Origin: Patellaria atrata CBS 101060 | Lineage: Eukaryota | Assembly (NCBI GenBank): GCA_010093705.1 | Contig: MU006104.1 | Coordinates: 124,001 to 188,000 of the forward strand | Length of the DNA: 64,000 nt | Direction of reading: 5' to 3' | In this document: positions 1,307-24,437 of the stretch, one piece after another | Layout of the letters: every line of letters begins with the position of its first letter | Numbering within the stretch: position 1 is the first letter of the stretch | Translations under genes and position numbers: made by a program | Notes under the pieces: model-generated | Databases searched by the model: none | What the model was told of the DNA's origin: nothing | Seen by the model: only the letters and a program-made list of their open reading frames with translations

Positions 1307-3696
1307 CTAGTCCTGAGTAAAGGACCATGTGTCAAACATGTTGCTACTATCTGATAACGGCTCAAAGCTGTTGAACGAATCGACCGTAAAAGCCAATCCC
1401 ATTGAGCCACCAAATGCATTCTGGTCGAACACGGACGAATCCCCAAGCAGTGGCACGACTGCCTGGTTATTGTTGACATGTTGATCCACATCCGGCGAGT
1501 CAAAACTCTGCAACGTCTCAACGGTATTGGGATATGAACACTGTGAGGGTTGTTGAGAAGAAGGACCAGAAGGGCTCACCGAGCCAGTGAGACCGGTCCG
1601 GATTCGACTGATGAGATAGTCAGCTTTAGCCGCAAGGTCTCTCGTCACATTTGCGGCACTAGCCGCGATAGCGAAATTGTTGCCAAAATTTTCGAAAACG
1701 GCAATTGCATTGTTGATCGCCTTCCGAGCCGAGGGTGTAGACGGTGCAATAGGGTAAGCGAGCACAAAACCGATCATGGATAAGGTTGCGTTCCACTGCC
1801 ATTGGAACGGTTCATGCCACCCGCTTAGAATATCCGTCTCTGTCAGTACTTGATGCATAATATGAGTGATTGCAATCGCGTGGTTGACGCACGATATAGC
1901 GTGCCCTTCAGCTATTGGAGTTGCGCTGGATGCTGGAGAGAATGAGATGAAAGGTCGATATAGGTTCATTGAGAGGTTATGATAGAGGAGCTCTAAAAGC
2001 AACCGCTGTCGCTGAAGCCACAAGGGAGCGAATAGTTCTATCTCCAATGCAGACCTGTCCGTCGAAAAGGCCTCTCCCGCTCCCTTGCGCTTTGTCTTTA
2101 GTTGCTTCGGCACGCTCTGCAGCCAGTTATGGAGACATTTCATACTTGAGTTGAGGAAATCTGCACATGTCTCAAGCGATTGGGGGTCGTTGTAGAGATT
2201 CTTCCCGCCATTTGAGCCGAGAACGTCGGCGCATTTATCGTAAAACGCAGTGTAGATTGCTCTAGCGGCCAGGATGAGATTCGCATTCTGCAATGTGTAG
2301 GTGAGCCAAGTAATACTCTCATCAAAAGGCGAGAAGTTAGAGCCAGACACCAAGGCGAGTTCATGGTCATCAGCAGGAAACTTGCAGGTCACCTGGGAGA
2401 ACTGAGCTGCGAATGGTCGTCCAAGCTTCATACTTGTCTTACTCTCAATAGCGAACAGCGTCCACCAGAGCCGTCTTCTTAGTTCTTTCTGCTTCCGTGG
2501 CATATCTTCTGGAGGCTCTAAATGGAGGCCTAGGATATGAGCTGTCCTCATGGACAAAGCAAGAGAAAAATGAGCCATATTCGTAAACGAAGCGTTGCAA
2601 AGATAAATGACCGAAAGAAAATGACATTGAAGTGTCGTGATCGAAGGACTTTCCATATCACATGTAAGTAAGGATTGGCATCTTCGATAGAACCAACGTC
2701 CAGCAACTGTAGCATCGTTGATGTTTACATCCGCTCGAGGTTCTGCATCGTTTCGGGGTAAGAATGCTGTACCATACTGCATGCATAATGCAAGGACGAT
2801 ATCAACAAGCGCTGATGGCTTTCGAGGCGCTCCAGGTGTGGTCCATAATGACTTGTAGTGCTCGCGGAATTCAGACTCATCGATTACCTGTAGCGTACAA
2901 TGGTATGACTGCCAATATAGGCCTAAGAAGTATTCCTCTTGAGTACTTGTCAGATATTCTTCAGTAATTGGAGAGTCTGTCTCCATCATATTTTGTTCAA
3001 CACTACCGTTCCATGGGCTTGTGGGACTTGCGAATACCCTACTTGCAGAATTTGGTTGCATATGGTGGTCTGAATGAGGTTGCTGGAGCGCTTTTTCCAA
3101 ATAGGAACCCATCCGGCCTATAAAGTAGAATAGTGACGAGGGGCCATAGCACTGTGTTTGATGCGATTGCGCAGTGCTGGTGTGAATCCCTTCCCAGTAT
3201 TTCCTCTTCCCTTCAAGCTCTTTGAAGGGATCTAGAGCAGGAGGCGGTGATGCAGCCGAAGAAGCTGGAGGAGTGGGTAGTGAAGCAGACCCATTTTTAA
3301 GGGATCTATCGCCGTCGAGCTGCTCTTCTAGCTCCTTTACTCGTAGTCTCAATCTCTCGATTTCCCTTAGGAGCATACAGTATCAGCTTGAGTGTGGAAC
3401 CCGTCGAGCTCGTAGGATAACAGAGATATTTATAGAGACAACAGAGTCACTTACCTGACAGCATGAGGCAGAGTTCGGACATCACTTGTGCCTTTATTGC
3501 TACATTGCCCTCCTCTGTTCTGACAGTTGTGGCATGGATAGTTGCTATCACATTTGATGCGATGAACTCGACACCAGTCGCAAGCTCTGGCAACTTGGCT
3601 ACGCTTCGGCCGTGCTGGTATCGAGGGAGTAGCTCCAGTGGAGGAGTGGTCATTCTTTAGAGAACGAGGCGGGGCACCTACGAAAGTGGTAAACAT
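1307..3696 (-). CDS. Zn(II)2Cys6 fungal transcription factor with fungal-specific TF middle homology region; probable cluster regulator
   Basis: Exon 1 (3696-3455) encodes [28 protein letters not shown] (C-x2-C-x6-C-x5-C-x2-C-x6-C). A GTAAGT...AAG intron at 3454-3366 joins it in frame to the 689-aa ORF containing [24 protein letters not shown] (Fungal_trans-type motif). Confidence 0.93.
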
Positions 3697-6600: not shown

Positions 6601-7206
6601 GAGCACCAAATATTGACTGATACGTCAACCCTACTTCAACAACAAGGTATGCCAACCCTCGGCATGGATACTATATGCCCCGCAGTACCCCAGAATTAGG
6701 GTCATTTTCTTTTTGTTCTGACTGCATCAGGTCTTCAATCGACGGAGTTAATTGACGATAAGGATATATAGATTTTACATCACCCCTTGCTCGCGTCTCT
6801 TCAAATAAGCCAAAATCCTACTGTCGGCCTTGTATAGGCGGATCGGAATCGTGTCGCTGTGTCATTTGATTCGCCGACTTCCTCTCTATGCAAATTTTTA
6901 GATCCCTATAACGAGGCTGTATTTGACCACCATGGTAGCCCTATTCTTGGAGATGTTGTCAGCTTGGGAATTTTCTTTCAGCACCCCGCGTGGCTGACTT
7001 CAGGCCCTAGAAGAGAAGCTGCGAAGCTGATGAGAGCGACAAACTTTTGACCAGTCTTGATACATTGATGATAAGTTTGGAATCGATGAAGACTACTAAT
7101 GGTGGGATTCTTGTGAATTGAAGTGATGTTTGGGTTTGTTCAGAATGCTTCGCGGTTTAGCGTCTTATCTCCGAACATGAACCAGCCCCTGAAAATGAAG
7201 CACTAA

Positions 7207-7218
7207 TTCCCAAAGGAG
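7207..7218. promoter_or_regulatory. Candidate cluster TF site TTCC-CAAA-GGAG upstream of the MFS gene
   Basis: Palindromic TCC-N4-GGA core about 410 bp upstream of the ATG, followed directly by two CTCCGAAA direct repeats (7221-7236). The same core recurs upstream of other cluster genes. Confidence 0.5.
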
Positions 7219-7619
7219 AACTCCGAAACTCCGAAATCTGCAAACGGCTAGACTCTCTATACGTTCCTCGTCAAAGTGAGCTTAACCCGAATTCATCGAA
7301 ATGAAGACCTCTAAGCTGATTGACAAGTCGTTCCGGGTTGAATCATGACGCGTACAAGAGTGAAATGCTACTGGATAGAACACGGTCGTATTAGGAGTCC
7401 CTTTTGCTTAAAGAATGTCGTCTGGGAAGAGATCTCTTTGACCCCAAATCTAAAGGAGTTGCGGACTTTCCGTTTTAGGAAGTACATGATTAGAATGAAG
7501 CAATTATGTATAGCATGTCGTCTCTTCCATTCATATGAGTGTTTATTCCGCTTTGATTATACGTCTTCAAGTCGTCTACACTTCTACATCCTCACATTTC
7601 TTTCTATTCCGAAAATAAT

Positions 7620-9431
7620 ATGACAGAAAACATCGGGTACATATCGAATTCCGCCCAAACCAGCCAACCAGACATCGAAAAATCAATTGGTGAGGATATA
7701 CCTTCGGAAACTACGAATGGACCTACACAAAGCGGCTCGTCTCTGTCTAGTCAGGAAAAGCAACAACTGTCGAGCAATAATGACGGAGTAGAACCGACCC
7801 GTCGAGTTACAGGATACCGTTGGATTTTAATTTGTATAGCAATTTACTCCGCAAATATCCTCTATGGTCTCGACACCACTATAGCAGCTGATATACAAGC
7901 GGATGTGTCCGAAGCGTATGATAATGTTACTCAGTTAGGATGGCTCGGTGTGGGATTTACCTTAGGATCTACCGTAGCAATATTACCCCTTGGGAAGGTC
8001 TATGGCATCTTTAACAACAAGTGGATCTTTATCAACTGTCTAGCCCATTTTGCGGCTGCGAGCGCATTGTGTGGTGCCGCGCCTACTATGAGTGCTGTGA
8101 TCGTCGGGCGTGTTTGGGCCGGAGCTGGGGGTGCCGGAATGTATCTTGGGTGAGCAATCGAACGGATTTACTGTGATTGTAGACTGACTCTTGAGGAGAA
8201 CTTTGAATCTAGTAACGGTTACGAGCACCCCGAAAGAGCAACCATTCTATGTTGGCCTAACTGGGTTCGCATACGGTAGCGGTTGTATTCTGGGGCCAGT
8301 CGTTGGTGGATTGTTCGCGGATAGTGCTGCTACGTGGCGTTGGGTACGTCTTTCGCAAGATATCCATTCCTGTCGAACTGTTCTAATTGTATTTGTTAGG
8401 CCTTTTACCTCAACCTCGTGATATTTGGAGCTATGAGTCCCATATACTTATTCTTGCTGCCATCTCTTCCTCGTCATCCCGGCACTACTTTCACGCAAAA
8501 GCTAAAGGGCCTCGATTGGCTTGGCACTGTACTCACCGGGGGTCTATACGTCTCCTTCACTTTAGCATTCACCTTTGGAGGTGCTATTTGGGATTGGGAT
8601 GATGCGCGTGTCATTGCGTTGATAGTGCTGTTCATAATCTTTACCATCGTCTTCGCTGTCACTCAATACTACTCCGTCTTCACTAATAAGATGGACCGAC
8701 TTTTCCCCTGCGAGTTTCTTCGCGATCCCCAACTCATACTTCTATACGTTTGTATGGCTTGTGGTGGTGCAGCTCTTTTCGTATCAATCTACTACATCCC
8801 TCTATACTTCTTGTTCGTTCATGGAGATAGCGGTACGGAAGCGGCTGTGCGTCTTCTCCCGTTTATATGCTTCTACGTCGCGACAATTCTGGCATGCGGA
8901 GCGTTTATGGGACGTGTGGGGTACCACTGGCTATGGTACCTTATCAGTGGTCTGTTCATGACAGCTGGAGGTACAACCATGTACACGGTGAATGCGGACA
9001 CAGCAGCAGCAAATATATACGGCTACACCACTCTGGTTGGCCTAGGTATGGCGACCACACAAGCAGGATATGCGGTTGGTCCTCTTCTCGTGAGACCTGA
9101 GCGTGTTGCGGAACTCATACAATTTTTGAATATTTCCCAAGGATCCAGTCAGCTCATCGGTCTAGCTATCGCCGGTTCCATGTTCCAAAGCATTACGTTT
9201 GCAGGATTGCAGGATGTCCTGAGAGGAACAGGATACCCTGACAGTGAGATACGGGCTGCTATTGCCGGCGCTAGGAGCGACATACTTCAAAATGCGAATC
9301 CGGAACTTCGAGCACGATGCATCGATGTTATTGTCCGAAGCATCCGCAATGCATGGGTCTTGGTTATTACAGCAGGTGCACTGTGGACAGTGTGCTCTTG
9401 CTTTCTGACTAAACGGCGTTTCGTAACTTGA
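7620..9431 (+). CDS. DHA2/14-TMS MFS efflux transporter, PatC-like
   Basis: Three exons, with introns at about 8150-8198 and 8344-8399. Motifs LYGLDTTIAADIQ, IVGRVWAGAGGAGMYLG, LGPVVGGLFADSAATWRW|AFYLNL and YYIPLYF, plus many hydrophobic helices. Very similar to recalled patulin PatC (AVRLLPFICFYVATIL, GLGMATTQA). Confidence 0.9.
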
Positions 9432-10434
9432 ATGCACTTCGAAGCTTTCGATCCTCTCCATGTTTTCTCTTTTCTAATTAAAAGCATCCGCTGGTTCTAC
9501 TGCGAGCACGGAGCTATTGTATAAAATAATTTGGGGCATAGTTCTTGCTTTGGGTCTATAGATAGGTCCAGGTTGTATTTCTATTATAGTATGGGGAATA
9601 TACCCTACCTATTGATATTAGCAGTGACTTACAGAAAGAGATTAGATGTGCTTGGCACCTACACTTGAAGCTACTTCCGTACTAGTCGCAAATCCACTAG
9701 GCTTATTGAACATCATCGTAGAAGTTGAATTAAGCTTTTCTCTCAAGCGGTTTGAGCCGAATCTAAGATCTACGTTCATATAGGGATCTACATTTGGAGC
9801 GGACAATGCACTGTAATTGACTGTACAGCTATCGAAGCATGCTAATATTCGGGAAGACAGATCAGGGGTTCATGCACTTGAAAGTAGTCGGAAGCTACAA
9901 CACTTTTAGGCGATCTAACAAGGCTCCATGCTCTTTTCCTTGTGCATATGAATCCAAAGCTGCATCTGCTATGGACACGGAAAGCTTCGATGTGCCTGAA
10001 TTGATGTTGAAAATTAGTCAAGCTTTAAACTTTAGGTACAGTCCTTTTAGCACCGGAAATGTCAATAGAGGAGATCATAGAATGCAGGCTAAGGGAGCAA
10101 AAAGGTTAGTGAGTATTCCAGATGATTGAAAGCCCATTAGAACACACAATACGGACAGGCCAATCTTCATCATACAAAACATGACCAACTTTGGTATGAA
10201 ACGGGAACTTCCTGCTCCGTTGGGGACTAACTGGCGCGTTTGCCCATAACAGAGCAAAACGTTTACCCCAGCCCATAAGAATACAAGGAAACTATATCTG
10301 AAGAAACTAAACCGGGTTCGAGGGTATAGATAGAATAGCCCAGCAATCTGTCGCTTCTCTGATGTTTTTTCTAGCCTTACAATACGGCTAAACGTGGCGT
10401 CCCAAGAGCTATTCTGGACACCCGAGTTTAGGGA

Positions 10435-10446
10435 TTCCAGATGGAT
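10435..10446. promoter_or_regulatory. Candidate cluster TF site TTCC-AGAT-GGAT upstream of the ADH gene
   Basis: TCC-N4-GGA core about 440 bp upstream of ATG 10884. Confidence 0.35.
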
Positions 10447-10883
10447 TCGGCTTGAACCTCTTCGTTGGATCCTTATCAAGGTAGCATATTCATCAAAAGC
10501 CGCTATGCTAGGTGGAAGCGTTTTGATGTTGATATCGAGGTTCTGTACGACATGGTCGATCTACAACGATATGACAGCACTGGATATTTGCATTCTTAAC
10601 GCCGGTGACGTAGACTATTTAATTAGAAATATTTCAAAAAGATCGTGGTTTGCGGATTTAAGATATCGAAGGTAACCTCCTTGGCTATTTTGGCTAGTCA
10701 TTGAGCTTCCTCTCCGGGCCTCCTGGGACGTTTTCGGCTAGGTTCCGGAGCACTCCTTTAGGCTAGCGCCACAGGAACCCTATAACTATACAGAACAGCA
10801 TTCTTTTTTCTTTGCGACGCCGCATGTCTACACATCTCTCCAAATCCAAACTTTTGCGATTACTAGTGAACAAGTTTAGGACC

Positions 10884-12230
10884 ATGGGCCTTCCAAAGAC
10901 TTACAAGCAGGCGGTTTTCAACGACGCCGGCGCTCCTCTCACCATTCAAGAGGCTGAATTGAGCTTGCCGAGCAAGGGAGAGGTGCTGGTTAAGGTTCAG
11001 GCTTGTGGTGTTTGTTTCTCGGATATGTTCGCACAGCATAACATCATGGGCGGTGGATTGTAAGTTACTTCACCTTGAATCTAATGTAGTTTGAGATTCT
11101 CTTAATGGAGAGACAATGCATCTGCAGATATCCCGTTCAACCGTACCACTGACTCTGTCGCTTAGCCCTATCGTTCCTGGCCACGAGATCATCGGAACCG
11201 TAGCTGCTGTTCCTGAGGGAGAGACGAAGTGGAAAGTCGGAGATCGAATTGGTGGAGCGTGGCATGGTGGTCATGACGGTAAGATACATGCATTCCCAAT
11301 CTGAACAAATTGAAGATCGCATCAATAACGTAGATATTTCAACCAGGTACTTGCCATGCATGCCAAAAGGGTCTCTTCCAAATGTGTGATAACAAAGCAG
11401 TCAATGGCGAGACCAGAGGTGGTGGATGTAAGTACACTTAACCGCATTAGAGCACATACACTTATAGTGCATAGATGCAGAATACTGCAAGCTTCGCACT
11501 GAAGCTGGTGTTCGTATCCCAGCTCACCTGGACGCAGCCAAGTATGCCCCAATTCTTTGCGCTGGAGTGTCTGTATTCAACTCCATGCGCCGTATGGAAA
11601 TACCACCTGGATCGACAGTTGCAATTCAGGGTCTTGGTGGTCTTGGACATCTTGCAGTCCAATATGCAAACAAATTTGGATACCGCGTTGTCGCTATCTC
11701 TCGCGATGCTAAGAAGGAGAAATTTGTTCGCGAGCTCGGTGCACATGAATACATCGACACAAGCAAGGTTGATGCGGGTCAGGCGTTGAAGAAGCTTGGT
11801 GGCGCATCGTTAATCGTTACCACGGCTCCCTCCGGAGATGTTATTACGCCATTGCTACAGGGACTCGGTCCATTGGGAAAGCTACTTATCCTGTCGGGTA
11901 AGCTAATTTATAAAGAGACCTGTATTAGAGCTGTACTGACATTTTCAGTTCCGGGTGAATTACCGATCAATACGGGTGTCCTTCTTGGGTACGGATTATC
12001 GGTACATTCATGGCCTGCCGGTCACGCTACCGATACCGAACAAGCCATTGCATTTACCGAGCTGCAAAACGTCAACTGCATGATTGAGAAGTTTCCGCTT
12101 CAGGATGCCCAGAAAGCTTTCGGTAAGCCGCTCCGTCCTATGAGAGAAGTACATAAGCATGACTAATCAAACTATAGACGCAATGCTCAAAGGAGATGTC
12201 CGTTTCAGGGCAGTTATCGTGATGGAATAA
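10884..12230 (+). CDS. Zinc-dependent medium-chain alcohol dehydrogenase, PatD-like
   Basis: Six exons, with GT-AG introns starting near 11060, 11279, 11428, 11898 and 12123. Motifs ACGVCFSD, PGHEIIG, GWHGGHDG-type WHGGHDGTCHACQKGLFQMC, GLGGLGHLA (Rossmann) and C-terminal VRFRAVIVME*. Matches recalled PatD. Confidence 0.9.
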
Positions 12231-14036
12231 ATTGGTGGGAGTGAAGATTCAAAAAACAAAAATCTAGCAGTTAGCATCATGAGTGCGTCCCAGTAACTCC
12301 TGCAGCCTTGCCTACATAGCACTAAATGGCTACGAGTGATCTGTACACGCTGGAACTGGAATCTAGGAGTGACCTTACGTTTAGGCGACTAAGGTGTGCA
12401 GAAGAATTCTAGTGGTCCTTTAGCGATGTAATTTAGCTTTCACAGAACCAATAAAATATGTGTGCTCAATATGAAGGTGCAAAAATACTAGTGAGTCCTT
12501 AACGAAAGTCCTAGGATCATGAATCCGTGCTCCTAGCGTTTTTGGATTGAAGAATGGAGACTGAAGTAGAAATACCGGCTTAAGTCATTACGAAGACTTT
12601 AGCCTCTACAAAAAGGGATTAAAGATGGGTAACTAGATTAGATCACTTCCAAGAGAGTTCCATTCGGGAACATAATGCAACAGGGCTAAGCCATATCCTT
12701 GAGGAATATTAATAGCAGCTGGACCTAATCTTGTGCTACCCGTAGGAGTTATCAACTAAGACGGAAGGTGACAAGGGGGACACGTGCCAACCAAGTAGGT
12801 GGCAAATTCAAGGAGACTGAAACGTGCTGAGTGGGCTGTATCAAGGATTGTACAGTACCACGTAAGTGGCTCTTGGGGCGAGGTTTGCGAGTGCTGTAAA
12901 TGACAATGCGTAGAGTTTACAGTGCCACATTGGCTGCGGATATGGTATGTACGTCCGATGGCGGAGTCCAGAGGTTTACGAGGTGTGATACCTAAAACTC
13001 CTTAGGAAGGTTGAGTTTAGGGATTGTGGTTGTGTTGGACGAACCTTGTCTCAGACGTGGGGGATATGCTTTGATGGTAGCGAGGTATGGGATAAATGCT
13101 ACATATTTGGTAATGATTGAGGTATAAATGCTTGCTATTCCACAACAAGGGACGGAATGTTATCTGTGGCAAATCGAGGTTCGCCTTAACAGGCGATTAA
13201 AGTTCGTCGTTGCAACGTAGAGGCTAGTTTGAAGTGAGCAATAAAGAAACATTAGCTATGAGGATGACTGTTGGAAAAATAGTGACCACCTATTCAAGGA
13301 TACGGTGCTTGATCCCCCCTTACGGGAGATATCTTTGGGCATGTTTCCCATGATTAAGGTACGGTATGACCCCGCTGAACGTCTTGTGCCACTATACTGG
13401 TGATACACGTTTTTTGGGACATTGAACGTCAGACAGTAGGGCGGAATCTGTGAGGTGGTTGGTAATATGTCTCATCTGTTTTACTAATTGGCGGAGGATA
13501 CGAATATGTCCCAGATAGATTCGCTAATTCGGACGACCCCGGTGTGGATTGTATTTTTGTGCTCACTTAGCCAGGGGCGACTTATCCTAACAGAATGCGA
13601 AGAATGCGATGGTCCTGAAATATTGTGGCTTTGGGCTTCAAAGGACACTTGACGAGATTTTCCATTCTTGTAGGTTGCCAGCTAATCGAATACGGGTGTA
13701 GTTCTTGATAATTATCTCTGAGAATTGGGCTCACAGCTAATATCGGGTCCAAACCTGTCTAATGTTGCTCCTTTTGACCCGGTTGTATGGAAACGGGTCC
13801 GTGTGACGCCGAAAAACGTGGAAAAGCAAGCCTCACTTGCACAAACTATCCCATGACCAGCATTGATGGTAAAGTCTCTAAATAGAGCGTATAGGGTTCT
13901 CATTAGTCGTCCTTGATAATCTTTTGATCGAAATCCAACGCTATACACAGTTCTTTCGAAGCTCAGGTAACGGCGCTGCATAGGCTATCAAGTTGCCCAT
14001 GTTTACTCGCTTGTTGATCCAGCATTTTAAGAACAA

Positions 14037-14048
14037 CTCCTTATGGAG
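14037..14048. promoter_or_regulatory. Candidate cluster TF site CTCC-TTAT-GGAG upstream of the GMC gene
   Basis: Perfect CTCC-N4-GGAG inverted repeat about 310 bp upstream of ATG 14353. Confidence 0.5.
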
Positions 14049-14352
14049 ACACTTTTTTGTGGCTTGGGGGCTCCGGAGACTCCATAAGACAGTTGACGGT
14101 TACGCCTGATGACCTCGAATCCTGTAATTAGATGGGCTGAGAGGAGCTAAGGTGAAGTTGCGAAGTACCAAACTGAACAGTATCATTCTGAGGCGAGCTT
14201 AAGCTATAAATTCGATGGACTAGGTGCAGTTTGTGAGGCGACAGATTGTTATATCTCCCATCTTAGTTTTGTGTAACCAGGAGGCCATATAAAATTGTTC
14301 TTCTTTTACAACATCGTTCTCTCTCATATTTTGCTGCGTCTCGTCGAATATC

Positions 14353-16356
14353 ATGGCGACAATACGATCATTGAGTGCGATCGGTTTTATTTTAGCTTAT
14401 GGATCATACGCGCTTGCCGTTCCAACATTTTCACACATCGAAGCTCGTCGCCTGCTAGGTTCATCTTTTGGAATACCTGGTAATAATGCCACATTCGACT
14501 ATGTTATCGTTGGAGGCGGAACTGCAGGTTTAACTTTAGCAACAAGGTTAGCGGAACAACAAAGCGGGAGTGTCGCTATTGTGGAAGCTGGTGGGTTTTA
14601 TGAGGTCGGTAATGGGAATATTTCCCAGATACCGGCATACGACGGCGTTTATGCGGGAAGGGGAGAAGATGATTGGCAACCCATGGTTGACTGGGGATAT
14701 CAAACCACCCCTCAAGTGGTGAGTGTACATGAATTCCCATGGAAGAAATCTGTTGATTTGATAAACAGGGGGGGTATGGTGATTCCATCCATTATGCTCG
14801 CGGAAAATGCCTAGGAGGAAGTTCGGCAAGGAATTATATGGCTTACCAACGCGGAACCAAAGCGTCCTATCAAAAATGGGCCGATCTCGCCGGAGATCAA
14901 AGCTATTCCTGGGACTCATTCCTGCCATTTTTTGAAAAGAGCTTAAAATTTACACCACCGAATATGGAGCTCAGATTCGCGAATGGGACACCAGAGTACG
15001 ATATTGAAGTGATGGGAGATGGTTCAGGCCCTTTGTCTGTTACGTTCTCTCACTACGTCCAAGCCTTTGGAACCTGGGCAACTAAGGGTTTAGAAGCTAT
15101 CGGAATCCCGATTGCACCGGGTTTCCAAAGCGGAACCTTGGAGGGCCAGTCATACAGCATGTTTACGATCAACGCAACAACAATGACGAGGGATTCATCC
15201 GAGACTTCCTTCCTTCGCAGGGCTTTGGCATACACAAATTATTACGTATACCAGATGACGCTAGCGAAGAGGATCCTCTTCGATGATTCGAAAAGGGCTG
15301 TTGGTGTGCTTGTGGACACTCAAGGAATGGAGTACGTCCTTTCCGCAAGAAAGGAAGTGATCTTGACCGCTGGAGTATTTGGATCACCGCAACTTTTAAT
15401 GGTCTCCGGTGTTGGTCCAGCTGCCGTACTGGAAGAGCATGGTATTCCTGTTATCGCGGACCGCCCCGGAGTCGGTCAAAATATGCAGGATCACGTTTAT
15501 TTCGGACCGTCTTATCGGGTAAACGCACCTACACTATCGGCCCTTAGTGATCCTGCATTCGTTGCTCAAGCAGCTGTGGAGTTCAATGAGAACGCAGCTG
15601 GGATGTTGACTAACCCCACCACTGACGTTCTTGCATGGGAGAAGGTACCTGAGCCCTTGCGCTCACAGTTATCGAATGAGACTCTTGCAACTTTGGCCAC
15701 ATACCCTGCAGATTGGCCTGAGCTAGAGTACCTCTCTCTCGGAGGGTACCTTGGCTTCCAAGAGAATTTGGCAAGGGGCGGTCCAAACGATGGGTACAAT
15801 TATGCATCCCTAGCTATTGCTCTATGCACGCCTGTTTCACGTGGTAACTTAACCATTGCGTCACCCGACACCTCGGTTGCTCCACTCATTAATCCTAACT
15901 TCTTGACCCACCGGGCGGACATAGAGGTTGCAGTAGCTGGGTACAAGCGGGTACGAGAGTTTTGGCAATCTGACGCCATGGCGCCATTCGTCATTGGTGA
16001 AGAAGCTTTTCCAGGCCCAGAAGTTGAAACTGACGCACAGATTGAGGATATCATTCGCAGAACGTACAACACTATTTACCATGCTGCTTGCACGTGCTCC
16101 ATGGGTCGTTCTAATGACACGATGGCAGTCGTGGACAGCCATGCGAGAGTATATGGGGTGAAGAGGATTAGAGTTGTAGATGCTTCATCATTCGCTGTAC
16201 TTCCTCCTGGTCACCCTCAGGCCACAGTTTGTAAGTTGATCGTTCATCGCTATTTTTCAGCCATTTTGACATATCACAGACGCGTTCGCTGAGAAAATGG
16301 CTTGCGCTATCACGGGTAATTGCGAAGAGAGTATAGTAGGCGCTCGAAGGTTCTAG
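14353..16356 (+). CDS. Secreted GMC (glucose-methanol-choline) flavin oxidoreductase, PatE-like
   Basis: N-terminal hydrophobic signal peptide, FAD motif DYVIVGGGTAG, HYARGKCLGGSSARNYMAYQRG, GVGQNMQDH and catalytic His pair (IYHAACTC, PPGHPQAT). Introns at 14719-14768 and about 16231-16279. C-terminus YAFAEKMACAITGNC. Matches recalled PatE, including RRLLGSSFGIP. Confidence 0.92.
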
Positions 16357-17168: not shown

Positions 17169-20100
17169 TCAACCCCATCTCCTCATCCAGGATCTCAAGA
17201 ACTTCCTCACATATCCATCTTTAACAATGTCCGGTGGCGACCTCATGGTTGCACTATCTCTTTCGGCTGCTTTTGTCTCAAATCTGACGCGCTTATCACC
17301 CACTCCATGGTCAAACCCATAACTTGTTTTGAAGTACTCAATCAACTTTACGGCAGGATTACGATTTTCTTGACCGAGTGTTGCACTTTTCTGCAGCTTT
17401 TGAAGCCATTCAGTGAAAGGTATCGTTTCAAACTGTAACCCAGCGGCACGGAGTTCCTCAAGAAGATCATCCCAAGAGAACTCCTTCGGGTTTACAAGGT
17501 TGTAAAAGATGTCAGAGCGTCTAGGATCTACTCCATTCAGAGTTGACGATTTTGTAAGGGACTGAGAGAGCTCAAGGATTGCAGTTGCAAGTGTATCGAC
17601 TGGGATCCATGAACATTTCTATAAACATGTCAATTTTGAAGATATCGGACGAGACCGAGCGCCTAGTACTTACTTGAGACATAGCCGGTAAGGCTTTCAA
17701 CGTCAGCGCAGATCGGATGAGTAATGGTATTGACTCCTTATCGTTCCAAATACCGTTTTCAGCATCTCCAACGATTTGGCCGATCCGCAATACATAGGTT
17801 TGAGCGCCAGCACGTGCTGCGTTCCGTACGATATGCTCGCCGACGAGTTTGGAATGCGCATATCCCATATTAGATGCGAAAGCGAAGTTTTCAACTGCAC
17901 TTTCTGGGACTGGTGCATTCGTTCGTGTATTCGATGCCGTAGATATTGAAGAACAGAAAAATAATTGAGCTGGTCCATCCCTTTCAACTGATAGGGAAAA
18001 ATGTATGAGGTTGTTGAGACCTCCAATATGCGGCTCGAAACTCTTCAAGCTAATGTTGAAGTTCACTGGCCACGCAATGTGGATGATGAGGGAGACCTCC
18101 TTTCTCATCTTCTCAATGATCGATGGATTAAGACCCAAATCTGAACGGACCAGATCACTTGTTAATGCAACGATCTTAGCTTCTTTTGCGCTTGAGAGCT
18201 GGAGACCTCTCTCTGTTAAGGAATCCAGAACTCGTTGTCTTGGATTCGCGCCCCGGACCAGGCAGTAAACCGTCCCAACATTAGCCTTAGCAACAAGCTG
18301 TGCCAGAGTATGGGCGCCCAAAGATCCGGTAGCTCCAGTAATAATCTGTACATACATTAGCTGATTATTTCTTTTGGAGCGAAGGTTACGAACCACTGCT
18401 TGCTTTTCAAAGTTCGAATACTTCTTAATTAGTTCCTTCATTAACGTTGACTCATCATTGTGGACTTGGCTTTCTCCTTCTCTAAGGCAACGAATATAAT
18501 GAGCTAACCGCCGTGCATTCCCATATTCATAAACGACGTTCTGGCCTAGAACTTGGCCATTCAAATGGAGACTTTTCTGTATCACACGCCTCATCTGGAT
18601 CGCTTTTAAACTGTCAATGCCTGCACTGAAGAAATCCGTCTCTGGGGTTTCCAGTGCGACACCAATGGCTTCCTTGAAAGCCTTCATTAGAAAGTCCTCC
18701 AGTTCTACTTGGTCCAATATAAGAGTCCCTTCTTGTTTGCCTTCCAGTGTAGCATACATTTCTTTGATCTCGTCTGCAAACTCTGCGTAGACTTGGGCTC
18801 GGATGATGCTCCCCTTGTCAGTCTGTGGGTATTCCACATGTGAGGGTATTGGGATGATCATTTCTTTCGTGATCTGTGAGAATGCTTCAGCACAAGAATT
18901 AGCGTCGGCAACAGATGGCCAAATGGATTCGATATAAGCATCGTTAGACATATGGTCGGCTTCCTTGGCACGGAATACAAGAAGGCCGGGTATGGGTTGA
19001 TCTACGCCGACAACTGCGGATTCCCGGACCAATGGATCTTCTCGAATACGACCCTCGATTGGTAGGGGAAGGACCTTCTCTCCATTCACCAAAGTTATTC
19101 TGTCATCAATACGAGTGACATACTTCCAAATATCTGGAATGGTTGGGTGTGGGCTGAATACATCCCGGGAATGCCAGGACCCAGGCGCAGGAAAGTCGGA
19201 ATTCGAGGTAGAAAGCGCCGGATGCCCTTTCAAGTATACACACTCGTACAAATTGTCTCCTAGTGGGTTCATGTAGACGTACTTCCTAATATTGGCATAC
19301 AACCGCAAGTAATTCCAGGAGTTGTCACCTTTGGCCCTCCGCATGCTATCGCCGGCAAGACCTGCTTCGGTACTTACAACAAATCAGCTTAAGGACGAGA
19401 CCTTACGGAGCATGAGAACTTACGTTCCGAACACGACGCCAAAATTAATTCCTTCCTTGACCAAGCGATCCCCTAATTCATCCGGGGTTCGAGCACCAGC
19501 TGCAGTTACAACTTGGCAGGCTCTCATTGCATCGATACCACTTTTCTTCTCGGCCAATAGTCCTAAGCAATACGGCACCGCATGTATCGCTTCAGGTCTT
19601 ATCACTTTCATTACAGCGACTAGATTTTCTGAAGTCAAAGGCAAAGAGGTATTGTACAAATGGGCCGTTTTACGCATCCACATTGCCTGGAGAGAAGTGG
19701 AAATACCGTACAAGTGATACCACGGTAAAGCGTTGAAATTATGCAGTCCAGACCCTTGAGTAGGATGAGTCAGAATCGCTCTATGAGAAAGCATGATGGG
19801 CTTCGGCAGGCCTGTAGATCCAGAGGAGTGTAATATCAACGCTATCCTCTTGTTCTCTTCCTCCCTATCGTACTTGCGAACGAATGGTGCCTCGCCAGAA
19901 TTTGGTCTGTCATATTGCCTTCGGATCGGGATTTTGAGCGCCCGTATTTGGAAATCTTGGTTTACCCTTTCAACAGTTGACTTCACTTGTGCCGAATGCC
20001 CGTGTATTATTGTAGAACAATCAGTCTTCTTGAGAAGATTGATAACCGCTAATGGGGCTATCCTCAGTGACAAGCAGAGAACGCTGTAACCCAGTCTTGT

Positions 20101-20466
20101 GAGCGCAAAAACAGAGACTATGAAATCAACATTTGAAGGCGCTAAAAGTGCAACAGTTGCTCGTGTATCCTGTGCCAACGTTTAGCGAGTGCAATCCAAG
20201 GCTACTCCGATAACAGCGTGGAGTTCTTCACTTACTGGCTCGAGACCTGAGGCAAGATACACTTTGACTGTAGCGTCGATAAACTCGTCCAGTTGTTTTC
20301 CAGTGAAGCGCTCATAGTCATCAACGCTATTCTCAAATCGTGGATAACCCAAGATAGGTGTGGGTGGATTATCAGTAGAGCGGTGACGGACGATGTCGTC
20401 CAGTACTTTCAACTCACCAAATGCGTCGTACAACTGCTGCACCCGTTCCTGGGACAGATGTGCCAT
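17169..20466 (-). CDS. NRPS-like adenylate-forming reductase (A-T-R; carboxylic acid reductase) no. 1
   Basis: Five exons, with introns at 20235-20170, 19423-19373, 18393-18346 and 17673-17619. A domain ILHSSGSTGLPKP and RIDDRITLVNGEKV; PCP site DFFSAGIDSL; R domain IITGATGSLG and GYAHSK. The last exon (KCSWIPVD...NPAVKLIEYF...WMRRWG*) is missing from the ORF track but is open in frame. Confidence 0.93.
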
Positions 20467-21556: not shown

Positions 21557-22836
21557 TTACCCGAGCGTCTCTGGAATCGGTGCCGACTTTGGCAGAGGGG
21601 GTGTGTCCATCACCAACCCGCCCATCAATGTCTCTGCAACCCTTGTGCCATGTACCTCAGCGCGCTCGATTGCGTCCCTAATCAGATTATCTTCCTCTGG
21701 CGTCAAAGTCACATTAAACGCTCTTATGTTTTCCTCGAGATACTTGACCTTTTTAGTACCGGGAATTGGAAAAATGTCTTCCCCTTGATTCATGAGCCAA
21801 GCTAATGTGAGCTGGCCAGAGGTACAGTTCTTCTTGTCTGCAATTGAACGTAGAGTATCCACAAGTTGGAGGTTCTTGGGGAAGTTCTCTTTCGAAAACC
21901 GTGGAATTGATCTCCGGAAATCGTTCTCGTCGAAGTCGTCGATAGACTTGTATTGGCCTGTAAGCATACCACGACCAAGAGGTGAATATGCAACTGTGGC
22001 AATGCCTAACTCCCGGCATGTCTTCAGAAGTCCAGGATCGGGTTTCTCAATGTCCATTGAGAAAGGACTATATTCTATCTGATATGCTTGGATCTGGTGG
22101 ATCTTGCTTGCACGACGCAAGGTGTCTACTCCACACTCGCTCAATCCAATATACTTAACTTTTCCAGAGCTAGGAATTGATCAATCTCGTGTGCGTACGG
22201 TTGAAAGCTCAATATCATACTCAACATATTCTTTCATTGTCGCGACAATTTCTTCTACCGGTGTCTTTCCACTAAAACGATGGCTATTGAAGTTCATTCA
22301 TCAGCTTATACTACGCTTAGGACACTGTCTTTGGACTGGTACTAACCAATAGAGGAGATCAATGTAGTCTGTTTGCAGTCTTTTCAAACTCTCTGCAACG
22401 GCCTGATGGATATATTCGGGTTCGTTCCTGATTTCTCGGCCACCTTCGGGAGTGACATGATTCCCAAATTTTGTGGCTAGAAATATCTGGTCCATGTCGG
22501 CTTAGGAGCTTTTCTTCTACTTATGGGACAACACTTTATCTCACCTCCGTGCGTTTGCCTGTGCGTTGGAACCATCTTCCAATCAATTCTTCGCTATCAC
22601 CATACAATGCTGCCGAATCCCAATGCACACACCCAAGCTCGTACACGCGATCTAGAAGCTTAAATCGGTCTTCGTCCAGCGTAGGGACGCCATAGAATGC
22701 TACAAAACCTTAACAATTTCATGCGAGCGCAAAAACTCTCATAGGACTTACAGCTTAAACCCATCATACCAAACCCGAGGGCTGGTATTTCGGGGCCATT
22801 TCTTCCCATAACTCTAGTAGGCAGCTTGTTTGGCAT
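21557..22836 (-). CDS. Aldo-keto reductase (YakC/AKR13-like)
   Basis: Spliced model: MPNKLPTRVMGRNGPEIPALGFGMMGLS|AFYG...HWDSAALYGDSE...|IFLATKFG...IDLLY|CHRF...|SGKVKYIGLSE...QIEYSPF...AYSPLGRG...PIPGTKK. Catalytic D/Y/K/H tetrad present; four introns. Confidence 0.92.
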
Positions 22837-23550: not shown

Positions 23551-24437
23551 TCAGTTAGCCAATTCGAGGAAGGTAGACGGCTTCCACTTGATAAGAGTTA
23601 CTCCGTCATACACCGGCAACAGGATAGTGTCAATCCTGGTGTCATTTTTGCAAAAGGTGTTGAACCTCTTGAGAGCCTTGCCGCACTCCGTCCAGTAGGG
23701 TCGAACCTTCTCAGGCAGAGTAGGATTCGCATCTGTACTAATTGTCATGCCGCGGGCGAAGACTGTATTTCGGTTAACTTGTGGAATTCAAATTGCTCAA
23801 AGATGCTACTTACTGTTGTCGCACATGATAAATCCATGCGGTGAGAGCAATTGCTTGTCGAGGATGTACTTGACATAACCCTCGTAACCTTCCTTATTGG
23901 CGTCGACGAATATGATGTCAAAAGTCCCTGACAGTTTTGCAAGCGACGCTTGAGCAGGCCCCTCGATAAGGGTGATCCTGTCGTTGACCTTGTATTTGTC
24001 AAAAGTCCGACGAGAAGCAGCAATCATCTTAGGGTCCAGTTCCAGAGTAATGATCTCAGCTTTGGTAGACTCCGTCGCTTCGTACCATGCCAACGCACTA
24101 TAACCAGTGAAGCAACCAATTTCGAGGACTACGTTTGTCAACTTGTGTTCTGAGATAAGAAAGACTTTCTAGTACCTCTCTTTGCCTGCTGCCATTCCGC
24201 AAGGAATTTCATGGTAGCGCCCTGGAGAGGCGAGGACATCTTATCGGCATCCTCAAATTTCCCACATGTCCACTCCCAAACCTCGTTCATCTCTTTGGAG
24301 ACATCGTTAGAGTGCTTGGTACAGTATTCAGTAACTGTAGCAGCCATTTCAGGCTGGATAAAAGATGGTCAGTAAGCGTGTATCGCTTTTGAAATTTTAC
24401 GGAGACTTACCGTGAAGGACAGGACACTGGACAACAT
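23551..24437 (-). CDS. Cation-dependent catechol/caffeoyl-CoA-type O-methyltransferase (Methyltransf_3)
   Basis: Four exons. VLEIGCFTGYSAL (SAM motif I), TLELDP, FDIIFVDANKEGY and IMCDN (D-x-x-K and DN metal-binding motifs), and LLPVYDGVTLI. Confidence 0.9.

What the first reader, a model, noticed from the sequence alone, without database searches (positions are those of the whole stretch)
7620..16356. Contiguous patC-patD-patE-like triad outside a patulin cluster: a portable reduce-inside, export, oxidise-outside module
Seen: MFS, ADH and GMC lie adjacent on one strand. Their sequences share long stretches with the patulin proteins as I recall them (PatC GRVWAGAGGAGMYLG and RLLPFICFYVATIL; PatD WHGGHDGTC-x2-C-x-KGLFQMCDN and FRAVI-x-ME; PatE LGSSFGIP, RGKCLGGSSARNYMAYQRGTKA and AEK-x-AC-x-I-x-GNC). 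Established: patC, patD and patE are neighbours in the patulin cluster; PatD makes E-ascladiol and secreted PatE oxidises it to patulin extracellularly. Here no 6-MSA synthase, decarboxylase, P450s or isoepoxydon dehydrogenase is visible. Inference: either this triad is an evolutionarily mobile self-protection/activation cassette recruited by a different pathway, or this cluster preserves the ancestral context from which patulin acquired it.
Basis: partly seen in the sequence, partly recalled or inferred. Interest (0 to 1): 0.82.

Follow-up and report, generated by a model that had tools for sequence, protein, structure and literature searches.

The report
Ancient sister module of patulin genes
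Three genes resembling the last steps of the mould toxin patulin pathway (an exporter, a reductase and a secreted oxidase) sit here without the rest of that pathway, and they belong to an old, widespread fungal gene set of unproven function that is a sister of the patulin genes, not a copy of them.

Summary
The three genes are real, intact and adjacent. The ADH is 69% identical to P. expansum PatD and the GMC oxidase 64% to PatE. The genome (Patellaria atrata by a 100% hit) showed no 6-MSA-synthase-type PKS and no close PatG or PatF-like hit, so this is not a patulin cluster. But the trio is neither rare nor a copy of the patulin genes. Closer relatives (up to 77-81%) occur linked in lichens, Aspergillus, dermatophytes and Xylariales. 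The GMC falls in a well-supported sister clade of PatE, and grouping it with PatE is rejected (AU p=0.024). A patC/D/E-only set was already noted in Aspergillus affinis. Best reading: an ancient regulator-exporter-reductase-oxidase module that reduces a reactive aldehyde inside, exports the alcohol and reoxidises it outside; a paralogous copy serves patulin. Substrate untested. Here it abuts two carboxylic-acid-reductase-like NRPS genes, an aldo-keto reductase and a catechol O-methyltransferase, which suggests an aryl-aldehyde redox cycle making H2O2; that link is not shown conserved.

The parts
1307..3696 (-). Zn2Cys6 transcription factor, probable fourth member of the module
   Evidence: PF04082 and PF00172; homologues 47-48% identical lie between MFS and GMC in L011 and L044
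7620..9431 (+). DHA2-type MFS exporter (PatC-like), 3 exons, 568 aa
   Evidence: PF07690; best NCBIfam model efflux_EmrB, below cut-off; 71% to the MFS of patulin-type locus L010
10884..12230 (+). Zn-dependent alcohol dehydrogenase / aldehyde reductase (PatD-like), 6 exons; the NCBI model starts 20 codons earlier at 10824
   Evidence: 69% to PATD_PENEN over 335 aa; best own-genome hit of PatD; best NCBIfam model NADPH-dependent aldehyde reductase Ahr, below cut-off
14353..16356 (+). GMC oxidoreductase, probably secreted (PatE sister clade), 3 exons, 634 aa; catalytic His560/His604
   Evidence: 64% to PATE_PENEN; 8BXL E 5e-208; hydrophobic N-terminus and 7 N-glycosylation sequons; His pair conserved in 41 of 41 aligned
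17169..20466 (-). NRPS-like A-T-R protein 1 (carboxylic-acid-reductase-like); membership of the module unproven
   Evidence: PF00501, PF23562, PF00550, PF07993; best PDB hit 8AEP, E 4e-38 (its identity as the Neurospora CAR reductase domain is recalled)
21557..22836 (-). Aldo-keto reductase; membership unproven
   Evidence: PF00248; best PDB hit perakine reductase, E 6e-44; likeness to yeast YakC aryl-aldehyde reductase is recalled, not tested
23551..24347 (-). Catechol-type O-methyltransferase (PaMTH1-like); membership unproven
   Evidence: PF01596; PaMTH1 4QVK/4YMG, E 1e-44
26542..30251 (+). NRPS-like A-T-R protein 2, only 25% identical to protein 1; membership unproven
   Evidence: PF00501, PF23562, PF00550, PF07993; pairwise comparison
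7169..7235 (+). Three CTCCGAA copies upstream of the MFS; a weak candidate regulator site (also at 10744-10750 and 14071-14078)
   Evidence: Picked after the fact; window-wide count 16 against 16.3 expected; 4 vs 1.0 in L044, 3 vs 0.65 in L011, 1 vs 0.6 in L010

Best explanation
The trio plus the upstream Zn2Cys6 regulator is an old four-gene module of filamentous ascomycetes, a sister paralogue of patC-patD-patE. It most likely works as the patulin end steps do: the cytosolic, probably NADPH-preferring Zn-ADH reduces a reactive aldehyde (aromatic or allylic) to its alcohol, the MFS exports it, and the secreted FAD oxidase reoxidises it outside, giving back the aldehyde (or a cyclised product) and H2O2. 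Shown: gene anatomy, homology, linkage in other fungi, tree position, conserved catalytic residues. Inferred: secretion, direction of each step, co-regulation, substrate. A second copy of the module serves patulin; which function came first is not shown.
For: Accessions are near-consecutive: A. steynii GMC PLB54582, ADH 54584, MFS 54585; A. sclerotiicarbonarius MFS PYI03845, ADH 03846, GMC 03849; A. melleus 6284/6286/6287. L044 holds ADH-MFS-TF-GMC and L011 MFS-TF-GMC. GMC tree: PatE clade 100/98, query clade 100/99, joined 100/99; AU rejects query+PatE clade (0.024) and PatE clade+Aspergillus trio copies (0.017). The MFS tree puts the patulin-type L010 outside the query clade (99, quick tree); the PatD clade (support 1.0) excludes the query, and A. 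leporis has an ADH in each group. His560/His604 and Tyr145 match PatE H564/H608/Y149 (residues named in PMC7824139, passages). PatD cytosolic, PatC plasma membrane, PatE cell wall/secreted (PMC9134587, passages).
Against: No substrate, expression or secretion data. The two GMC clades differ at some 45 fixed positions, including Y559 vs F563 next to the catalytic His, so PatE chemistry need not carry over. 40 of 56 named GMC relatives showed no linked partner in the truncated lists. The regulator link rests on two closely related loci. The AU values are modest, came from a non-mixture model on 23 of 83 rows, and depend on the root. The ADH backbone is poorly resolved and has no outgroup.
Confidence: 0.5

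Rival explanations
1. All eight genes (1307-30251) form one pathway: the catechol O-methyltransferase and the two CAR-like enzymes turn aromatic acids into aldehydes, AKR and ADH reduce them, the MFS exports aryl alcohols, and the GMC acts as an aryl-alcohol oxidase that makes extracellular H2O2, as in the white-rot anisaldehyde cycle. This extends the best explanation; it does not replace it.
For: All four flanking genes fit aromatic acid/aldehyde/catechol chemistry. The block is bounded by housekeeping genes. 2 of the roughly 4 CAR-like loci that one search found in the genome lie here. More distant GMC paralogues sit beside NRPS-like genes in 15 of 80 metagenome loci, about 3 independent groups. 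The cycle is described for basidiomycetes (PMC8140971, passages). Patellaria species are saprobes on decaying wood (PMC11767155, abstract start).
Against: No locus that has the trio also showed an NRPS-like, AKR or OMT hit (0 of 3; only L044 has a long flank, holding APH-family and GH76 genes). The candidate promoter word is absent from all four flanking promoters. The GMC is far from the characterised aryl-alcohol oxidases (E 2e-44 against 5e-208).
Confidence: 0.22
2. A detoxification or catabolic regulon with no toxin activation: the regulator senses an environmental aldehyde or alcohol (plant, lignin or competitor derived), the ADH and exporter remove it, and the GMC oxidises it further to a harmless acid or lactone.
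For: Presence in lichens, dermatophytes, saprobes and endophytes; its own regulator; no backbone synthase in the long flank of L044; A. affinis has the trio and no patulin was detected.
Against: Reducing inside and reoxidising outside is wasteful as plain detoxification unless the outside product differs (inference); the nearest characterised homologues do toxin activation.
Confidence: 0.2
3. A mobile cassette recently transferred out of patulin clusters.
For: Patchy distribution and shuffled gene order; Paraphaeosphaeria GMC and ADH both group with Hypoxylaceae (grouping with Patellaria rejected, p-AU 0.0003), so the module can probably move.
Against: The query is not in the PatE clade; within its clade sequences mostly sort by fungal group; GC of the genes matches the window.
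Confidence: 0.05
4. Part or relic of a true patulin cluster.
For: High identity to PatD and PatE and the same C-D-E order.
Against: Six iterative PKS loci, none of 6-MSAS architecture; best hit of a 6-methylsalicylate decarboxylase 27%; PatF-like query not found (no positive control); nearest P450 on the contig about 105 kb beyond the block.
Confidence: 0.02

Closest known systems
patC-patD-patE of the patulin cluster (P. expansum, A. clavatus)
   Same: Same three families in the same order; ADH 69% and GMC 64% identical; catalytic His pair and Tyr conserved.
   Different: Sister clade, not inside the PatE/PatD clades; fixed differences such as Y559/F563 and CGVCFSD vs CGVCHSD; no 6-MSAS-type PKS or close PatG found; own regulator upstream; flanked by CAR-like, AKR and OMT genes.
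patC/patD/patE-only set of Aspergillus affinis (PMC8709101, passages)
   Same: The same module: A. affinis GMC 74% identical, MFS three accessions away, same clade.
   Different: The passages I saw treat it as 3 of 15 pat genes and give no phylogeny, regulator or function; the supplement could not be read.
Aryl-alcohol oxidase / aryl-alcohol dehydrogenase redox cycle of white-rot basidiomycetes (PMC8140971, passages)
   Same: Reduction of aldehydes by NADPH enzymes and extracellular oxidation by a His/His GMC oxidase, with an aromatic residue before the first His.
   Different: The GMC here is only distantly related to Pleurotus AAO (E 2e-44); the activity is untested; I found no report of a clustered version.
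Grammicin cluster of Xylaria grammica (PMC12749516, PMC13215408, passages)
   Same: Patulin-like system in which the parts are separable.
   Different: The mirror case: backbone present, patD and patE missing from the cluster.

Membership tests
Patulin biosynthetic cluster | 6-methylsalicylic acid synthase PatK (KS-AT-DH/TH-KR-ACP, no ER or MT) | tested here: not met
   KS and AT searches give six iterative PKSs: two non-reducing, four highly reducing with ER or MT, plus FAS and thiolase hits. By domain layout; no PatK sequence was at hand; the assembly may be incomplete.
Patulin biosynthetic cluster | 6-MSA decarboxylase PatG | tested here: not met
   A named 6-methylsalicylate decarboxylase (P0388) hits 2 places at 27% and 25%, on other contigs; 5 PF04909 loci, none on C16.
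Patulin biosynthetic cluster | PatF (neopatulin-forming) | tested here: inconclusive
   Not found with one proxy query from L010; calling that ORF PatF-like rests on its position and on recall, and there was no positive control.
Patulin biosynthetic cluster | P450s PatH/PatI in the cluster | tested here: not met
   Of 95 P450 matches, those on C16 lie at 259-261 kb, about 105 kb from the block. Orthology elsewhere in the genome not tested.
Patulin biosynthetic cluster | PatJ, PatL, PatM, PatN, PatO orthologues | not tested
   No reference sequences obtained; whether the window regulator is related to PatL was not tested.
PatE (patulin synthase) clade | Monophyly with characterised PatE | tested here: not met
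   Sister clade; AU p 0.024.
PatE (patulin synthase) clade | Catalytic His/His pair and Tyr149 equivalent | tested here: met
   H560, H604, Y145; F563 is Tyr here and in 28 of 31 sister-clade rows.
PatE (patulin synthase) clade | Oxidises E-ascladiol; secreted | not testable with these tools
   Only a hydrophobic N-terminus like PatE's and 7 sequons; no signal-peptide predictor was run.
PatD clade | Monophyly with PatD | tested here: not met
   PatD clade support 1.0 without the query in a 71-row FastTree tree, midpoint-rooted, weak backbone; no AU test.
PatC | Monophyly with PatC | tested here: inconclusive
   No named PatC retrieved; proxy L010 lies just outside the query clade (99, quick tree).
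Aryl-alcohol oxidase redox cycle | GMC oxidises aryl alcohols with O2, giving H2O2 | not testable with these tools
   His/His and a preceding aromatic residue are present; the activity needs an assay.
Aryl-alcohol oxidase redox cycle | Conserved linkage or co-expression of acid and aldehyde reductases with the oxidase | tested here: inconclusive
   0 of 3 trio loci show the flanking genes, but flanks are short; expression could not be examined.

The most novel reading that the evidence does not exclude
The 29-kb block is a clustered, regulated ascomycete version of the aryl-aldehyde redox cycle (methylate, reduce acid to aldehyde to alcohol, export, oxidise outside to make H2O2), and the widespread regulator-MFS-ADH-GMC core is the ancestral redox shuttle whose duplicate became the toxin-arming end of patulin biosynthesis.
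Probability: 0.2. Interest if true: 0.78.

Novelty: new variant of a known kind. Interest (0 to 1): 0.45.

Why it matters
It reframes patC/D/E-only hits as a separate, conserved four-gene module and not as decayed patulin clusters, which matters for mycotoxin-risk calls from genomes. It offers a testable origin for the extracellular last step of patulin synthesis and a large clade of uncharacterised, probably secreted flavo-oxidases. If the flanking reductases belong to it, a wood-dwelling ascomycete would carry a clustered H2O2-generating cycle of a kind described mainly in white-rot basidiomycetes.

Tried and rejected
AlphaFold model of the GMC: mean pLDDT 57.9, unusable, so no fold search or pocket comparison. 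No RNA holder listed; the runs laid were DNA-like contigs, so nothing on expression. Promoter motif: no spaced CGG pair stood out; CTCCGRA was picked after the fact, is at chance level window-wide, counts palindromes twice, and L011/L044 are close relatives. Hidden genes in six intergenic gaps: no tblastx hit in 80 loci, and no hit of the L010 patF/B/A proxies in the window or 60 kb upstream. ESM Atlas on the MFS gave only generic MFS clusters. A crude hydropathy scan found 7 strong membrane segments, not enough to count helices. Earlier scan findings: nothing by sequence or place, one unrelated cyanobactin note by words. The PatE structure paper (Tjallinks et al. 2023) is not held; only its reference entry was seen. 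Literature searches for a description of the module found only the A. affinis remark; the library is open-access only. PMC7819241 (passages) gave nothing usable.
Full report
Observation. The window is contig C16:124001-188000 of a 28.7 Mb genome in 127 contigs. The GMC has a 100% database match named Patellaria atrata CBS 101060. An MFS gene (7620-9431), a zinc ADH gene (10884-12230) and a GMC oxidoreductase gene (14353-16356) lie in tandem on the + strand, with GT..AG ends at the 9 introns inspected. The ADH is 69% identical over 335 aa to the record named PATD_PENEN and the GMC 64% over 595 aa to PATE_PENEN. PatD's best hit in the genome is this ADH; the GMC's next own paralogue is at 30%. 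No named PatC was retrieved.

Not a patulin cluster. The KS search gave 17 matches in 10 places and the AT search 12 matches. I fetched the 10 KS places and scanned 24 of their 36 long ORFs: two non-reducing PKSs, four highly reducing PKSs carrying ER or MT domains, fatty acid synthase and a thiolase. The C14 place has no AT match, so I read it as a stand-alone KS; the weak C15:401 kb hit was not scanned. None has the 6-MSA synthase layout. A named 6-methylsalicylate decarboxylase finds only 25-27% hits. A PatF-like proxy finds nothing, without a positive control. The nearest P450 on the contig is about 105 kb past the block. The 60 kb upstream show housekeeping-type ORFs by eye. PatJ, L, M, N and O were not tested, and the assembly may be incomplete.

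Surroundings. Upstream is a Zn2Cys6 regulator (1307-3696, minus strand). Downstream are an A-T-R NRPS-like gene, an aldo-keto reductase, a PaMTH1-like catechol O-methyltransferase and a second A-T-R gene, 25% identical to the first; housekeeping genes follow.

The trio is widespread. The closest GMCs are not PatE but proteins of Microsporum, Coleophoma, Teloschistales lichens and Aspergillus section Circumdati at 74-77%; the MFS and ADH searches give a similar taxon list. Of 56 named GMC clusters left after removing the query and the 6 PatE-clade rows, 16 share a contig with a listed MFS or ADH homologue and 4 with both. This is matched by species and contig length, is a lower bound because each list ends at 120 rows, and on megabase contigs does not prove adjacency. 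Adjacency is shown where accessions or locus tags are known: A. steynii 54582/54584/54585, A. melleus 6284/6286/6287, A. sclerotiicarbonarius 03845/03846/03849, Gyalolechia 3968/3970, Teloschistes 4236/4237, Mycoblastus 3837/3838, Parahypoxylon 2845/2848. Of 80 metagenome loci, 3 carry close partners: L044 has ADH-MFS-regulator-GMC, L011 has MFS-regulator-GMC at a contig end (regulator 47-48% identical to the window's), and L010 has a PatF-like gene, GMC, ADH, MFS, carboxylesterase and acetate transporter, that is a patulin-type arm. L011 and L044 are close relatives, so the regulator link is one independent observation besides the window. A. affinis was already reported to hold only patC, patD and patE and no detectable patulin (PMC8709101, passages; its supplement could not be read, and may say what core gene lies nearby).

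Trees. A FastTree tree of 83 GMC rows and an IQ-TREE tree of 23 rows that I chose from it place PatE, A. tanneri and L010 in one clade (100/98) and the query with lichen, Aspergillus, Leotiomycete, Onygenales and Sordariomycete sequences in a sister clade (100/99). AU tests reject query plus PatE clade (p 0.024) and PatE clade plus the Aspergillus trio copies (p 0.017); the second group was named after seeing a tree, and the model had no mixture. The MFS quick tree of 24 rows puts L010 just outside the query clade. The ADH tree of 71 rows has a PatD clade (1.0) without the query, a weak backbone and no outgroup; A. leporis has an ADH in each group. Taken together the genes look like sister paralogues of patC/D/E from an old duplication of a linked set. 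The trees do not give a direction; the wide spread without a 6-MSA synthase is the only argument that the non-patulin role is older. Against strict vertical descent, Paraphaeosphaeria GMC and ADH both group with Hypoxylaceae, so the module has probably moved at least once.

Mechanism. In P. expansum PatD is cytosolic, PatC is at the plasma membrane and PatE at the cell wall, believed secreted (PMC9134587, passages). The GMC here keeps H560/H604 and Y145, the equivalents of the PatE residues named in PMC7824139 (passages), has a hydrophobic N-terminus and 7 sequons, but differs from the PatE clade at some 45 fixed positions, among them Y559 for F563. The ADH has Ser-Arg after the second nucleotide-binding strand like PatD, which by general knowledge favours NADPH, and its best NCBIfam model is an NADPH aldehyde reductase, below cut-off. 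So reduce inside, export, oxidise outside is the most economical reading (0.5), with an aromatic or allylic aldehyde as the likely substrate. That PatE also accepts aromatic alcohols is recalled from Tjallinks et al. 2023, which I could not read. The flanking genes suggest an aryl acid to aldehyde to alcohol route feeding an aryl-alcohol-oxidase-like step, as described for white-rot fungi (PMC8140971, passages). For it: coherent chemistry, 2 of about 4 CAR-like loci of the genome here, and distant GMC paralogues beside NRPS-like genes in 15 of 80 loci, about 3 independent groups. Against it: 0 of 3 trio loci show these neighbours, the one long flank (L044) holds unrelated genes, and the weak promoter word is absent from their promoters.

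Novelty and verdict. The trio outside patulin clusters has been noticed once in what I could search; seven searches of an open-access library found no account of its breadth, its regulator or its sister-clade status, which does not prove there is none. It is a new variant of a known kind: a real, conserved module with a plausible but untested mechanism, not peculiar to this genome. Interest 0.45; 0.78 if the clustered redox cycle proves true (probability 0.2).

Noticed in passing
L010:2678-15573: A patF-E-D-C-B-A-like arm near the start of a metagenome contig; its GMC is 70% identical to PatE and sister to the PatE clade. No patG-like hit in the 2.7 kb before it.
   Followed up: partly
P0088 and P0334 (Paraphaeosphaeria sporulosa): A Pleosporales GMC and ADH on one contig both group with Hypoxylaceae, suggesting co-transfer of the module.
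   Followed up: partly
P0225 (Lipomyces tetrasporus): A yeast MFS homologue at 63% groups with Fusarium solani (100, quick tree), a possible transfer into Saccharomycotina.
   Followed up: no
G000:C15:631000-644127 (L091 and beyond): A non-reducing PKS with thioesterase lies next to another A-T-R NRPS-like gene, a candidate aromatic-aldehyde cluster and possible source of aryl acids.
   Followed up: no
L014, L016, L025, L026, L028-L035, L050-L052: More distant GMC paralogues (43-60%) lie within 10 kb of A-T-R NRPS-like genes in 15 of 80 loci, about three independent groups.
   Followed up: partly
G000:C21:343417-344486: A second PatD-like ADH (50-57%) elsewhere in the genome.
   Followed up: no
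G000:C21:5324-21942: Four P450 genes within 17 kb near a contig start.
   Followed up: no
window:10824-10886: The NCBI ADH model starts 20 codons upstream of the ATG at 10884 that lines up with homologue starts in L010 and L044.
   Followed up: partly
window:52608-54017: A LanC-like gene (PF05147) in a stretch of 62% GC against about 46% for the window.
   Followed up: no
window:3730-7619: An unusually long 3.9 kb gap between the regulator and the MFS with no recognisable gene.
   Followed up: partly
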